A stretch of DNA of 64,000 bases from Eledone cirrhosa. Lineage: Eukaryota. Both the position numbers and the translations under genes were made by a program. This document shows, piece after piece, positions 14,031-56,727 of the stretch (position 1 is the first letter of the stretch; each line of letters opens with the position of its first letter). The notes beneath the pieces are model-generated. The model was not told the origin of the DNA. It was given only the letters and a program-made list of their open reading frames with translations, and did no database searches. The stretch covers positions 20,212,001 through 20,276,000 of the forward strand of contig OZ024751.1 of the NCBI GenBank assembly GCA_964016885.1. The letters run 5' to 3'.

Positions 14031-14461
14031 ATTCAATGATATTAAATAAATGGAAACTGTATTTATAAAACCATATTTATTCTATTATATATATTTCAAG
14101 GGTACCAAAAACTTTAGTACGCTGTCATCAGATAAAATACAAAGTGTGTTTCATAAATTTTGACAACCTTAACGGTTGAAATTTTCCTTGGATAGTCAAT
14201 TAGAATTTCAACCGTTAAGGTATGTTCCTTGGTTATGTCAAAATTTATAAAACACACTTTGTATTTTATCTGATGAAAGCGTACCAAAGTTTTTGGTACC
14301 CTTGAAATATATATAATAGAATAAATATGGTCTTATAAATATAGTTTCCATTTATTTAATATCATTGAATATTATACTCCAGAAAATCTGTCGAGTGCTC
14401 TGAATCAGTTATAAACATTTATATTTGTTGAATTACCAACAAATTGAATATCCCTTCTGCC
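14031..14461 (+). mobile_element. fold-back Penelope-like non-autonomous element with two opposed hammerheads, flanked by (TA)n
   Basis: Inverted arms about 14031-14183 / 14205-14371, followed by an ACTC..GAGTGC tail with a TTGTTG/CAACAA hairpin. Confidence 0.8.
14262..14323 (+). ncRNA. type I hammerhead ribozyme
   Basis: TATTTTAT-CTGATGA-AAGCGTACCAAAGTTTTTGGTACCCTT-GAAA-TATATA-TA-ATAGAATA; canonical core, AUA cleavage after 14315; mirror copy on the minus strand at 14078-14139. Confidence 0.85.
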
Positions 14462-14768
14462 TATATATATATATATATCAATGATATTAATAAATGGAAA
14501 CTATATATCATTAATATCATTGATATTATACTCCAGAAACGCTGTCGAGTGCTTCGAGTCTGTTATAAATATATTTGTTGAATTACCAACAAATTAAATA
14601 TCTCTTTGCTTATATATATATATATATATATACGATATATTAACAAATGGAAACTATATTTATAAAACCATATTTATTTCATTATACATATTTCAAGGAG
14701 CTTCCAACAGAAATGGTCGCATTCTTTAAGGGTATGTCAATATTTATTTATAAAACTGCTCTATATTA

Positions 14769-14833
14769 TATTTTATCTGATGAAAGCACACCATAATTTA
14801 ACTTGGTGTCCTTGAAATATGTATAATGAAATA
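14769..14833 (+). ncRNA. type I hammerhead ribozyme (within fold-back element 14631-14965)
   Basis: TATTTTAT-CTGATGA-AAGCACACCA..TGGTGTCCTT-GAAA-TATGTA-TA-ATGAAATA; stem II covaries with the 14262 copy. Confidence 0.8.
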
Positions 14834-15128
14834 AATATGCTTTTATAAATATAGTTTCCATTTGTTAATATATCGTATTTTTACTCCAATAATTTGTTGA
14901 GTGCTTTATATCAGTTATAAAAATATTTGCTTGTTGTATCCCAACAAATTAAATAGAACTTCTACATATATATATAGAGAGATTTTGAGTTTATGTTGGT
15001 TGTATACCAACACCTCAGTATGCAGGCTGGAGCACTCGACGAAGTGCGCAGGTTGGTTTGGTTACTCCGGAGTAGTGTAAAATAAAGTTAAATAAAAGTC
15101 AAATGATTAAAATTTAGCTTCGTTTATT

Positions 15129-15183
15129 ACTGCTATATATATTTCAGTGACAGCCATCTTTGGCTGTGACCTCTTCAGGCAGT
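15129..15183 (-). ncRNA. type I hammerhead ribozyme
   Basis: ACTGC-CTGAAGA-GGTCACAGCCA-AAGA-TGGCTGTCACT-GAAA-TATATA-TA-GCAGT; fully canonical; its ACTC..GAGTGC tail runs leftwards to (TA)n at about 14976. Confidence 0.85.
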
Positions 15184-53720: not shown

Positions 53721-54141
53721 TAATATAAGATCAAAAGATGGTTAAAGGAGTTCCATGTATTTTATTATGCGCATTTCAAAAACAAACATCATCATGCAAT
53801 AATATTTGTGTTTTCATCAGATAAAACAGGAGAACATGATATGAAGGCTAAAAAACACTTGTGGATAGTGCAGTTTTAAATCAACATATGTTGATTTAAA
53901 ACTGCACTATCCACAAGTATTTTTTAGCCTTCATATCATGTTCTCCTGTTTTATCTGATGAAAACACAAATATTATTGCATGATGATGTTTGTTTTTGAA
54001 ATGCGCATAATAAAATACATGGAACTCCTTTAACCATCTTTTGATCTTATATTATGTATACTCCAATCCTACAAACTGTAGAGTGCTTCTTATCCGATAT
54101 CTGCATTGCTTTATTGTACTACAATAAAACTCACCTCCTAC
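53721..54141 (+). mobile_element. 334-bp near-perfect palindrome (53721-54054) plus 3' tail; Penelope-like fold-back element
   Basis: Centre CATATG at 53885-53890, one visible mismatch between arms, ACTC..GAGTGC tail with TTATTGTA/TACAATAA hairpin, (TA)n flanks. Confidence 0.85.
53947..54017 (+). ncRNA. type I hammerhead ribozyme
   Basis: TGTTTTAT-CTGATGA-long stem II-GAAA-TGCGCA-TA-ATAAAATA; palindromic stem III ATGCGCAT; mirror copy on the minus strand at 53758-53828. Confidence 0.85.
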
Positions 54142-55234
54142 ATATATGTATATATATATATATATGTGTGTGTGTGTGTATATATATATATGTGTGTGTA
54201 TGTGTATATATATATGTGTGTGTATGTATATATAAAATCACAAATGAACAATAGGTCAGTTATATGCGTTTTTGTATATATGTATCGTAATACAAAAATA
54301 ATAGTACTATCATGTATATCGTAACACACAGAAACAGCAGGCCGGCCTTAAGGTCAATGACCTACACAGACATACATATATATATATATATATATATATA
54401 GATACATATAGACATATATATATACATACATATAGACATATATACACACATATATATACATATATATATATATATATATATATATATATATATATATATA
54501 TAGACATACATATATACATACATATAGACATATATACACACATATAGACATATATATATACATACATATAGACATATATATATATATATACACATATAGA
54601 CATACGCACACTCACACACACACAGACATATAGACATACATACATACATACATACATACATACATAAAAACATACATACATATACATGCACACGTGTTTT
54701 AACCTATGGAGATAATGTGATAGTGTGTAAAAGCAGCAGGACAACTATAATGTCAATTACCTTTACACACACACACACACACATATACACACACACACAC
54801 ATATATAGGTCAATCGACTGGCTCGGTGGTAACACACAAGGGAAACTCCAGATTAAATCTCAACTGTTTATCCCCACTATGGTAATCAATACGAATCCTA
54901 GGATATATGTATGTATATATATATATGTGTGTGTGTGTGTGTGTGTGTGTGTCCCTTCTTTTCTGGTGACTAATGACCCTGTGATAAAGGGGCAAAATTT
55001 CAGAGTAACAAAACTCACTATTTAGCTTTAATAAATTGATTTTATATATATATATATATATATATATATATATATATATAAAGAAAAAGGGATGAAATCG
55101 AAAATGCAACTGAAGTCTTATTTTTTTTAAAATATATATATTTATTTGGTTCCTTTACCGGTTTCGCAGTTCTTCTGCTTTTCAAAAGGTGAGTTGAGAT
55201 GGAGGGTCTGTGGTTTTTCTCACATCTCAACTCA

Positions 55235-55272
55235 CCTTTTGAAAAGCAGAAGAACTGCGAAACCGGTAAAGG
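55235..55272 (+). ncRNA. minimal hammerhead ribozyme, U3-A8 core variant
   Basis: CCTT-TTGAAAA-GCAG-AAGAA-CTGC-GAAA-CCGG-TA-AAGG; mirror copy on the minus strand at 55152-55189; within inverted arms 55077-55201 / 55223-55347. Confidence 0.8.
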
Positions 55273-56689
55273 AACCAAATAAATATATATATTTTTAAAA
55301 AAATAAGACTTCAGTTGCATTTTCGATTTCATCCCTTTTTCTTTATACTTCCACTCGTGTAGGACACCTCGGTCATTTTTCATTTTGTAAAAAAAACCTC
55401 ACTTTCTAATATATATATATATATATATATATATATATATATATATACATATATATATATATATATATATACATATATATATATATATATATACATATAT
55501 ATATATATACATATATATATATATACATATATATATATATATACATATATATATATATATATACATATATATATATATATACATATATATATATATATAC
55601 ATATATATATATATATACATATATATATATATATACATATATATATATATATATATATATATATATATATATATATATATATACATATATATATATATAT
55701 ATATATATATACATATATATATATATATATATATATATATATATATATATATATACATATATATATATATATATATATATACATATATATATATATATAT
55801 ATACATATATATATATATATATATATACATATATATATATATATATACATATATATATATATATATATATATAGCGTGTGGCTGAGTGGTTAGAGAATTG
55901 GATTCGCAATCGTGAGGTTGTGAGTTCAATTCCTGGACCGGGCGATGCGTTATGTCCTTGAGCAAGACACTTTATTTCACGTTGCTCCTTCTACTTGGAG
56001 TTGCGACCGATAGATAGTATTAGCAATTGGAAATTAGCAATTGGAAAGACCAACGGAAACATTGTTTCCTCGGTCCGATTTGACGAAAGTCGATCGTTAA
56101 AGATATATATATATATTTATTTATTAAAATAACAGATTAAAGTTTAAGCAAAGAATCGCTGCTTTCACCCTTAACGGGATCTTATATATATATACATATA
56201 TTGACCAGATACTGACCAGAACTTGTGATGACGTGGAGTAAAAACAGCCAATGGCATGTCAAGAGTGGAAATAGAGTTTTTTTAGGGTGTTTTCTTATGA
56301 TAGCACCCCAGTGATAAAATTTGCTCGTAACACCCATGTCTGAAAGAACCTGCAGAAGTTGAATCAGCCAGATCCATACAAGGACCATGACTCGAGCTAC
56401 ATGCCGGCGAAACATTTGTAACACGAAATAAACTAAGTCCAGATGCATCACTGATTTTTCGTTTTCTTTATAATATCTACACTCTACTCTGATGAATATC
56501 GAGTGCTAATGTTGGCATACCGCCTATGGAAGCACCATATCTACCACTATACACAACTATATATATATATATATATATATATATATATATATATATATAT
56601 ATGTGTATAAGTGGTTACACAACAGTTAGTTCACCACACCGAGAACAATTGTTTCACCTTAGCGAATCCTCAGCTCGTAATGTCCATTA

Positions 56690-56727
56690 CGAGCTGAGGA
56701 TCCGCTAAGGTGAAACAATTGTTCTCG
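56690..56727 (+). ncRNA. minimal hammerhead ribozyme
   Basis: CGAG-CTGAGGA-TCC-GCTAA-GGT-GAAA-CAATTG-TT-CTCG; palindromic stem III ACAATTGT; mirror copy on the minus strand at 56640-56677; palindrome 56609-56758 plus tail to 56825. Confidence 0.75.

What the first reader, a model, noticed from the sequence alone, without database searches (positions are those of the whole stretch)
14262..56727. Stem III stays palindromic while its sequence changes: signature of dimeric hammerheads
Seen: stem III reads ATATATAT (14307, 15135, 48205), ATGCGCAT (54001), ACCGGT (55262), ACAATTGT (56715), ACAGCTGT (1524) and ACGT (9311). These are six different palindromes at the same position. Stem II also covaries (GTACCA/TGGTAC versus ACACCA/TGGTGT versus ACAGCCA/TGGCTGT) while keeping a pyrimidine mismatch at pair 4. 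Established: minimal hammerheads with palindromic loop III cleave efficiently as dimers. Inference: these sequences were selected as RNA, and activity needs two same-sense copies.
Basis: partly seen in the sequence, partly recalled or inferred. Interest (0 to 1): 0.75.

Follow-up and report, generated by a model that had tools for sequence, protein, structure and literature searches.

The report
Penelope-element hammerheads with self-pairing stems
The window is littered with end-pieces of many families of jumping genes, each carrying a small hammerhead-type RNA motif whose third stem is usually self-complementary, so the RNA likely cuts best when two copies pair; this kind of motif is already published, and cutting was not tested here.

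Summary
All eight palindromes are at the stated places, each in the stem III position of a type I hammerhead, well above chance. They are the 3' ends of about 13 families of Penelope-like retroelements (PLEs); related copies sit beside Hydra-clade and Neptune-type ORFs. Compensatory change is real in homologous alignments, and G·U forms far outnumber A·C forms, as RNA-level selection predicts. Most copies have no same-sense partner nearby; the six local pairs are inverted and would fold into long hairpins that hide the ribozyme. The pattern is published: Perreault 2011 (Fig. S8C), Cervera 2014 (consensus GAAAN-Palind-NUH, covariation, opposite-strand pairs, weak dimer cleavage). This scan noted it before in this and other genomes. 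Two details were not in the tables I read: a stem II pair-4 pyrimidine mismatch (14 of 14 sequences) and a family-wide U4C core (37 of 40 copies). Verdict: real, new members of a known kind; strict dimer dependence is likely only for the shortest stems.

The parts
1490..1536 (+). Type I hammerhead, core CCGAAGA (U4C), stem III ACAGCTGT, predicted cut after 1532
   Evidence: CCGAAGA in 29 of 38 family copies
5935..6040 (.). Inverted pair of decayed copies (cores 5984 minus, 5995 plus) of the ACAG-8nt-CTGT family
6146..6239 (+). Decayed U3-A8-type hammerhead with long stem II and hairpin stem III whose loop is near-palindromic
   Evidence: read by eye; family seen (L047, L114)
9285..9318 (+). 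Minimal hammerhead, stem III ACGT; this copy's core is mutated (CTAATGA)
   Evidence: family core CTGATGA in 29 of 33
12883..12916 (-). Second copy of the ACGT family; stem III mutated to ACGC (U16.1 lost)
14078..14139 (-). Hammerhead ATATATAT, inverted twin of 14270
14262..14323 (+). Hammerhead, 8-bp stem I, stem II with C·C at pair 4, stem III ATATATAT, predicted cut after 14315
   Evidence: 2534 candidates in G000
14769..14833 (+). Sister subfamily, stem III ATATGTAT (G·U palindrome), C·C at pair 4
15129..15183 (-). Hammerhead ATATATAT with ACAGCCA/TGGCTGT stem II; young family (top genome copies 98-100% identical)
48196..48256 (-). Solo copy of the 14270 family
53758..53828 (-). Hammerhead ATGCGCAT, inverted twin of 53955
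53947..54017 (+). Hammerhead ATGCGCAT, 15-bp stem II with C·U at pair 4
55152..55189 (-). U3-A8 core variant (TTGAAAA), stem III ACCGGT, inverted twin of 55239
55235..55272 (+). U3-A8 core variant (TTGAAAA), stem III ACCGGT
   Evidence: (46 of 49 copies)
56640..56677 (-). Hammerhead-like motif ACAATTGT, inverted twin of 56694
56690..56727 (+).
57312..57343 (-).
57721..57756 (-). Hammerhead of the Neptune-type family, stem III AGAACT, not palindromic (A·A centre)
58195..58245 (-). Hammerhead with 4-bp stem III and 8-nt loop TTCTAGTC (CTAG centre)
58287..58337 (+). Inverted twin of 58239; first stem I pair broken
62531..62614 (+). Hammerhead with long stem II insert; stem III ACCCTAGGGGGT, commonest family form ACCCCATGGGGT
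   Evidence: (2244 candidates)

Best explanation
These are type I hammerhead motifs at the 3' ends of about 13 families of Penelope-like retroelements, left here as short truncated and often inverted copies, and their self-complementary stem III was likely selected in the parent elements because two copies of the RNA would pair through it and cut better than one. Shown: the motifs, their repeat families, their fixed place downstream of PLE-type ORFs in related copies, compensatory change, insertion next to (TA)n. Inferred: transcription of a tandem or partial-tandem parent gives two same-sense copies; stem III of one pairs with stem III of the other and the stem I strands swap, giving two active cores. 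Inferred: this is obligatory for 4-nt stems, strongly favoured for 6- and 8-nt stems, and optional for 12- to 16-nt stems. Inferred: most copies in this window are inert, being solo, mutated, or locked in a hairpin with an antisense twin.
For: Random 1.2 Mb of G000 (120 stretches): 116 core+stem II+GAAA hits against 3-9 per shuffle; palindrome of 6 nt or more in 52 of 116 against 0 of 31 shuffled hits. Of 25 families seen in 2 or more loci (random plus targeted loci), 16 are perfect palindromes, 3 G·U palindromes, 2 have a single central base, 4 are other. Central dinucleotide can pair in 16 of 17 distinct even-length stems against 0.39 expected (families are related, so the p of 3e-6 is too small). 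Alignment of 14 hand-picked subfamily members: 17 of 22 pairs change on both sides, stem III 100% paired with 3 of 4 pairs changed on both sides, slid controls 30-52% paired. The 1494 superfamily shows ACAGCTGT, ACAGTTGT and ACAATTGT. One-wobble stems outnumber one-A·C stems 21 to 2 in the sample. In the 58239 family loop III is nearly fixed around CTAG while loop II varies. Nearest-neighbour energies favour the swapped dimer over two folded monomers by 11-20 kcal/mol for the 6- and 8-nt palindromes. ATATGTAT motifs lie 1267-1671 nt downstream of Hydra-type ORFs, same sense, in 4 loci; AGAACT motifs 192-313 nt downstream of Neptune-type ORFs in 6 loci.
Against: No cleavage or expression data. 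AGAACT, a large family (25 of 44 copies in its superfamily), has an A·A centre. In the 62537 family only 9 of 20 copies keep central CATG and 6 have an A·A centre. Outside the tandem-array families, 63 of 101 motifs are solo within their 10-kb stretch, 28 have only an opposite-strand twin and 10 have a same-sense partner. The one same-sense sister pair here (14270/14777) could form a -25.7 kcal/mol heterodimer on paper, but the cross pairs have probability 0.0 in folds of the surrounding sequence. 139 of 157 BLAST hits span the cut site, 1 starts and 2 end at it (13 overlapping queries), so insertions come from uncut RNA; Frangieh 2024 found cleavage dispensable for insertion in vitro. The overall ORF-to-motif orientation test is weak (14 same, 5 opposite, 22 none of 41 segments; p=0.06). 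The energy model has no tertiary terms.
Confidence: 0.8

Rival explanations
1. The 8- to 16-nt forms work as monomers helped by the element's protein or by a tertiary contact; the palindromic loop is kept for stacking or from ancestry, not for dimer formation.
For: Monomers can close 2-4 base pairs. AGAACT and the drifting 62537 centre. Published Hydra hammerheads include non-palindromic centres such as act-ttt-agt and acag-ac-ctgt (PMC8557442 File S2). The anole PLE hammerhead cut only when its protein was added (PMC11167929, passage). The invariant pair-4 mismatch could be a docking site.
Against: Loop bases that cannot pair in a monomer still change in complementary fashion (AATT/AGCT, ATAT/GCGC). 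ACGT and AATT cannot close stem III alone.
Confidence: 0.25
2. The structure matters, but not for cutting: it is a recognition or dimerisation signal for the element's reverse transcriptase, and cleavage is slow and incidental.
For: Copies derive from uncut RNA. Catalytic mutants do not affect insertion in vitro (PMC11167929, passage). One lineage keeps U4C, which lowers activity in vitro in a viroid (PMC3088659, passage).
Against: The catalytic core, the U3-A8 swap and the UH cut site are kept across families. G cores swapped the other ways (G3C8, A3U8, C6, G4) are not above background.
Confidence: 0.15
3. The palindromes are a DNA-level or chance product: AT-rich sequence, (TA)n slippage and inverted duplication.
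For: ATATATAT is a microsatellite word, the window is rich in (TA)n, and a slipped 12-nt form occurs.
Against: GC-rich palindromes in the same position; background perfect-palindrome rate at GAAA sites is 5% for 8-mers and 13% for 6-mers; GAAATATGTAT 31 against its A·C mirror form 1.
Confidence: 0.03

Closest known systems
Minimal and palindromic-helix-III type I hammerheads in PLE pseudo-LTRs (Cervera and De la Pena 2014, PMC4209133; read: main text parts 1-2 of 4, supplement file 2 part 2 and search passages)
   Same: Core, palindromic positions 15.2-16.2 and loop 3, many covarying families per genome, mostly solo truncated copies, opposite-strand pairs 100-700 bp apart, U3-A8 variant, consensus GAAAN-Palind-NUH.
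   Different: Far denser here (roughly 85-145 per Mb, against 4,000-9,000 per genome reported). Longer stem III forms are common. No U4C core and no C·C pair 4 in the alignment rows I read; D. virilis has a bulged U at a similar place in helix II.
Repeat-type hammerheads with palindromic stem/loop III (Perreault et al. 2011, PMC3088659; read: passages and the legend of Fig. S8)
   Different: Other animals; two such RNAs showed no cleavage in their assay.
Hydra-clade PLE hammerheads (Craig et al. 2021, PMC8557442; read: passages, section 11, File S1/S2 rows)
   Same: ORF motifs DKT, CxCx5C, CxxC..E..N..CxH; (TA)n targets; inverted 5'-truncated copies; 8-10 nt stem III with near-palindromic or one-base centres; mismatch at the base of stem II.
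   Different: The listed Hydra motifs have short, fully paired stem II; none shows the pair-4 mismatch or C4.
Dimer-cleaving PLE hammerhead variants (Lunse, Weinberg and Breaker, RNA Biol 14:1499; not held; title and a summary seen in review PMC6765202)
   Same: Short stem III, PLE association, cleavage as dimers, by its title and the review.
   Different: Cannot say; it may already cover the U4C and pair-4 variants.
Non-LTR retrozymes (PMC7229834, passages; bioRxiv 10.64898/2026.07.22.740005, part 1 of 5)
   Same: Type I hammerheads in short repeats; 310-bp ACGCGT tandem arrays elsewhere in this genome look like these.
   Different: The window's motifs are dispersed or inverted end-pieces, not head-to-tail arrays.

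Membership tests
Type I hammerhead ribozyme | Core CUGANGA ... GAAA ... UH in order, closed by stem I | tested here: met
   Family majority cores are intact or known swaps; single copies at 5995, 6150, 9288 and 12913 are mutated.
Type I hammerhead ribozyme | Helices I and II supported by compensatory change | tested here: met
   6 of 8 stem I pairs and 8 of 9 stem II pairs change on both sides, in one superfamily. The 56694 family has only a 2-bp stem II and was not shown to covary.
Type I hammerhead ribozyme | Match to a curated Rfam hammerhead model | tested here: inconclusive
   No hammerhead family among the 150 best of 280 rows shown; 130 rows were not shown.
Type I hammerhead ribozyme | Site-specific self-cleavage | not testable with these tools
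   Needs an assay.
Dimer-type (short palindromic stem III) hammerhead | Self-complementary stem III in the family majority | tested here: met
   10 of 13 window families perfect or G·U; 19 of 25 multi-locus families. Not met for AGAACT; interrupted in the 58239 and 6150 families.
Dimer-type (short palindromic stem III) hammerhead | Monomer inactive, dimer active | not testable with these tools
   Only energy estimates.
Dimer-type (short palindromic stem III) hammerhead | Same-sense partner in cis | tested here: not met
   For the window's copies: six local pairs are inverted; the 14270/14777 cross pairing is not predicted. Met in tandem arrays elsewhere.
Penelope-like elements (EN+) | Motif at a fixed place next to an RT + GIY-YIG ORF | tested here: met
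   for the 14270/14777, 53955, 15178, 1494 and 57755 families; ORF type (weak), 59 and motifs. Not shown for the 9288, 55239, 56694, 58239 and 62537 families. No ORF in the window itself.
Penelope-like elements (EN+) | 5'-truncated copies with inverted twins, inserted in microsatellites | tested here: met
   15 divergent against 2 convergent opposite-strand pairs.
Hydra clade | DKT, CxCx5C linker, CxxC and CxH around E and N, no CCHH | tested here: met
   Read by eye in the L033 ORF against PMC8557442 section 11; no tree was built.
Non-LTR retrozyme | Head-to-tail 170-400 nt repeats, each with a hammerhead | tested here: not met
   No such array among the window's motifs; seen in L063, L083, L089, L139.

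The most novel reading that the evidence does not exclude
One abundant lineage of Hydra-clade elements has evolved a hammerhead subtype in which an invariant pyrimidine mismatch at stem II pair 4 is a tertiary or protein docking site for the dimer, and a second lineage runs on a U4C catalytic core kept across diverged subfamilies despite CpG decay. Both would be natural, mass-copied variants not in the tables I could read, giving a graded series (4 to 16 nt stems) for testing when dimer formation is required.
Probability: 0.2. Interest if true: 0.5.

Novelty: new member of a known kind. Interest (0 to 1): 0.27.

Why it matters
The dimer signature itself is settled in print, so confirming it here adds little. 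What remains open is what PLE hammerheads do, since copies come from uncut RNA and cleavage is dispensable in vitro. This genome offers hundreds of thousands of copies (rough extrapolation) in dozens of families, with stems from obligate-dimer to monomer-capable and two stable variants. That makes a clean comparative panel for testing the dimer rule and the role of cleavage.

Tried and rejected
Rfam scan: only microRNA-like and similar hits from hairpins and microsatellites among the rows shown. Expression: no RNA holder listed; contigs of two runs laid on 15020-15290 say nothing on expression or ends. Pfam found weak or no hits for the PLE ORFs (RVT_1 in 3 of 6, one above cut-off; no GIY-YIG); the PDB search gave only a weak intron endonuclease hit (E 0.29). 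Reading 1494 and 55239 as decayed copies: rejected, the changes are family-wide. Reading 62537 as a counter-example: partly rejected, the commonest form is a 12-nt palindrome. Reading the inverted twins as dimer partners: rejected, they fold into hairpins of -61 to -209 kcal/mol. Other core variants (A4, G4, G3C8, A3U8, C6): not above reversed-sequence controls. Eleven hits in the A/T-rich satellite L117 were dropped as likely chance before the counts. The stem II probabilities printed used wrong indices and are not used. Part was cut, so ORF links for three families were not seen. The Lunse paper could not be read. Paper searches found no description of the pair-4 mismatch or a PLE U4C family, but none was a full test of that. 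One supplement of PMC4209133 was not searchable, and the PMC8557442 archive is cut.
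Full report
Observation. The window holds 14 core+stem II+GAAA sites, 9 with a palindrome, against 3.0 and 0.38 in 60 shuffles. A looser search and reading by eye give 22 sites in about 13 families.

Setting. The window is G000:C11:20212001-20276000 in a 3.0-Gb animal assembly, rich in microsatellites, with no PLE ORF of its own. Each motif is a repeat: 2534 first-look candidates for the 14270 family, 1110 for the ACGT family, 586, 394, 366, 57 and 47 for five others, 15 for 58239 and 2244 for 62537 (lower bounds). 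The copies end some 130-230 nt past the predicted cut and run into (TA)n or (CA)n. Six families occur here as divergent inverted pairs.

Unbiased sample. I took 120 stretches of 10 kb at even steps. A descriptor that ignores stem III found 116 sites against 3-9 in each of five shuffles. Of the 93 with a stem I of 3 or more Watson-Crick pairs, 53 are perfect palindromes (34 from one tandem family), 18 G·U palindromes, 13 have a 2-nt unpaired centre, 4 a 1-nt centre and 5 a larger loop; background for perfect palindromes at GAAA sites is 13% (6 nt) and 5% (8 nt).

Family level. Of 25 families seen in two or more loci, from random and targeted loci together, 16 are perfect, 3 G·U, 2 one-base-centre and 4 other. 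The central two bases, which cannot pair in a monomer, can pair in 16 of 17 distinct even-length stems; for one four-copy family I used the form that matches its majority centre (3 of 4). The exception is AGAACT, with sister form AGATTT. In the 62537 family 9 of 20 copies keep CATG, 3 have TATG or TATA and 6 have an A·A centre, so the rule may relax once four pairs can form alone. In the 58239 family the 8-nt loop with its CTAG centre is nearly fixed while loop II varies freely.

Covariation. In 14 hand-picked members of the long-stem-II superfamily, 17 of 22 pairs change on both sides, no shuffle of 500 reaches that, and slid structures pair 30-52% against 91%. Relatedness inflates these figures. 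Stem II pair 4 is unpaired in 14 of 14, always with C on the 5' side. The 1494 superfamily shows ACAGCTGT, ACAGTTGT and ACAATTGT, a full change with its wobble intermediate. A palindrome mutates to the G·U form or to its mirror A·C form equally at DNA level, yet G·U forms lead 21 to 2 in the sample. One superfamily supplies 18 of the 21, but ACAGTTGT, ACATGTGT and AGATTT recur too, and no A·C form passes two copies.

Core variants. TTGAAAA (U3-A8) is in 46 of 49 copies of the 55239 family and is the variant described by Cervera 2014. C4 is in 37 of 40 distinct copies of the 1494 superfamily, picked without reference to the core, across subfamilies that differ at position 7 and in both stems. 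U4C is known from a viroid, where it lowers activity in vitro (PMC3088659).

Parent elements. PLE-type ORF fragments occur in 29 of the 120 stretches. ATATGTAT motifs lie 1267-1671 nt downstream of L033-type ORFs in 4 loci, and AGAACT motifs 192-313 nt downstream of L056-type ORFs in 6 loci, all same sense. The window's own 14270, 53955 and 15178 families show the same layout at 1.0-1.3 kb in 2, 3 and 1 loci, and the 1494 motif sits just upstream of such an ORF in 2 loci. L033 carries the Hydra-clade motifs and its nearest Atlas clusters score 0.95-0.98, some with GIY-YIG or RT families. L056 has the Cx4CxxC linker of Neptune type.

Mechanism. In a swapped dimer each core takes its cut strand from the other copy. 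Nearest-neighbour energies favour it by 11-20 kcal/mol for 6- and 8-nt palindromes, 6-10 for the long stems and 8.8 for AGAACT; 4-nt stems cannot close at all alone. These figures leave out tertiary contacts and concentration. The partner would come from a tandem parent or another transcript, not from the local twin: inverted pairs fold into long hairpins, and 91 of 101 dispersed motifs have no same-sense relative within their stretch. Almost all copies span the cut site (139 of 157 hits), which fits the report that uncut RNA is the substrate for insertion (PMC11167929). Selection therefore acted on parents, and the window holds mostly inert copies. That last step is inference.

Prior work. 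Perreault 2011 shows the palindromic character of stem and loop III across ribozymes as a dimer signature (Fig. S8 legend). Cervera 2014 gives covarying families, the palindrome in the consensus, opposite-strand pairs, no monomer activity and low dimer activity for one tested motif. A 2019 review states the dimer model for PLEs and cites Lunse et al.. Craig 2021 lists Hydra hammerheads with similar stems. Earlier notes of this scan reach the same reading in this and other genomes; they are not independent evidence.

Verdict. Observation confirmed, though selectively listed. Interpretation partly supported. New members of a known kind; interest 0.27.

Noticed in passing
L063:4738-8201, L083:281-3381, L089:8630-9683, L139:8148-9732: Head-to-tail arrays of about 310 bp, each unit with an ACGCGT hammerhead, several flipping orientation midway; ACTAGT hammerheads repeat at about 466 bp (L069, L071). 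They look like non-LTR retrozymes.
   Followed up: partly
window 1490-1536 and L151-L180: U4C core kept across a whole superfamily although it makes a CpG.
   Followed up: partly
L047, L114, L042, window 6146-6239: U3-A8 families with long, branched stem II that also show a C·C mismatch near pair 4; one has a hairpin stem III whose loop holds an 8-nt palindrome.
   Followed up: partly
window 62135-62910: A 285-nt inverted repeat encloses the 62537 hammerhead; nested insertion history not worked out.
   Followed up: no
window 14356-14700: Partial tandem and inverted fragments of the 14270 family tail, separated by (TA)n.
   Followed up: partly
window 15020-15290: The young 15178 element is held at about 98-99% identity in contigs of runs labelled as two other organisms.
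   Followed up: no
window 12327-12513, 17721-17908, 23712-23902, 25640-25831, 26431-26614, 49893-50076, 53428-53622, 63734-63921: A repeat of about 190 bp with many copies at 89-97% identity, probably a SINE.
   Followed up: no
window 33266-33625 (minus): Short frame reading SKIDHSCEPNA, like an exon of a SET-domain gene (motif recalled), so part of the window may be intronic.
   Followed up: no
window 21940-23067, 37192-38796, 43042-43523, 52897-53512: Minisatellite arrays with periods 25, 93, 80 and about 88 bp.
   Followed up: no
window 18224-18638, 35194-35652, 42148-42600: Fragments of LINE-type reverse transcriptase ORFs.
   Followed up: no
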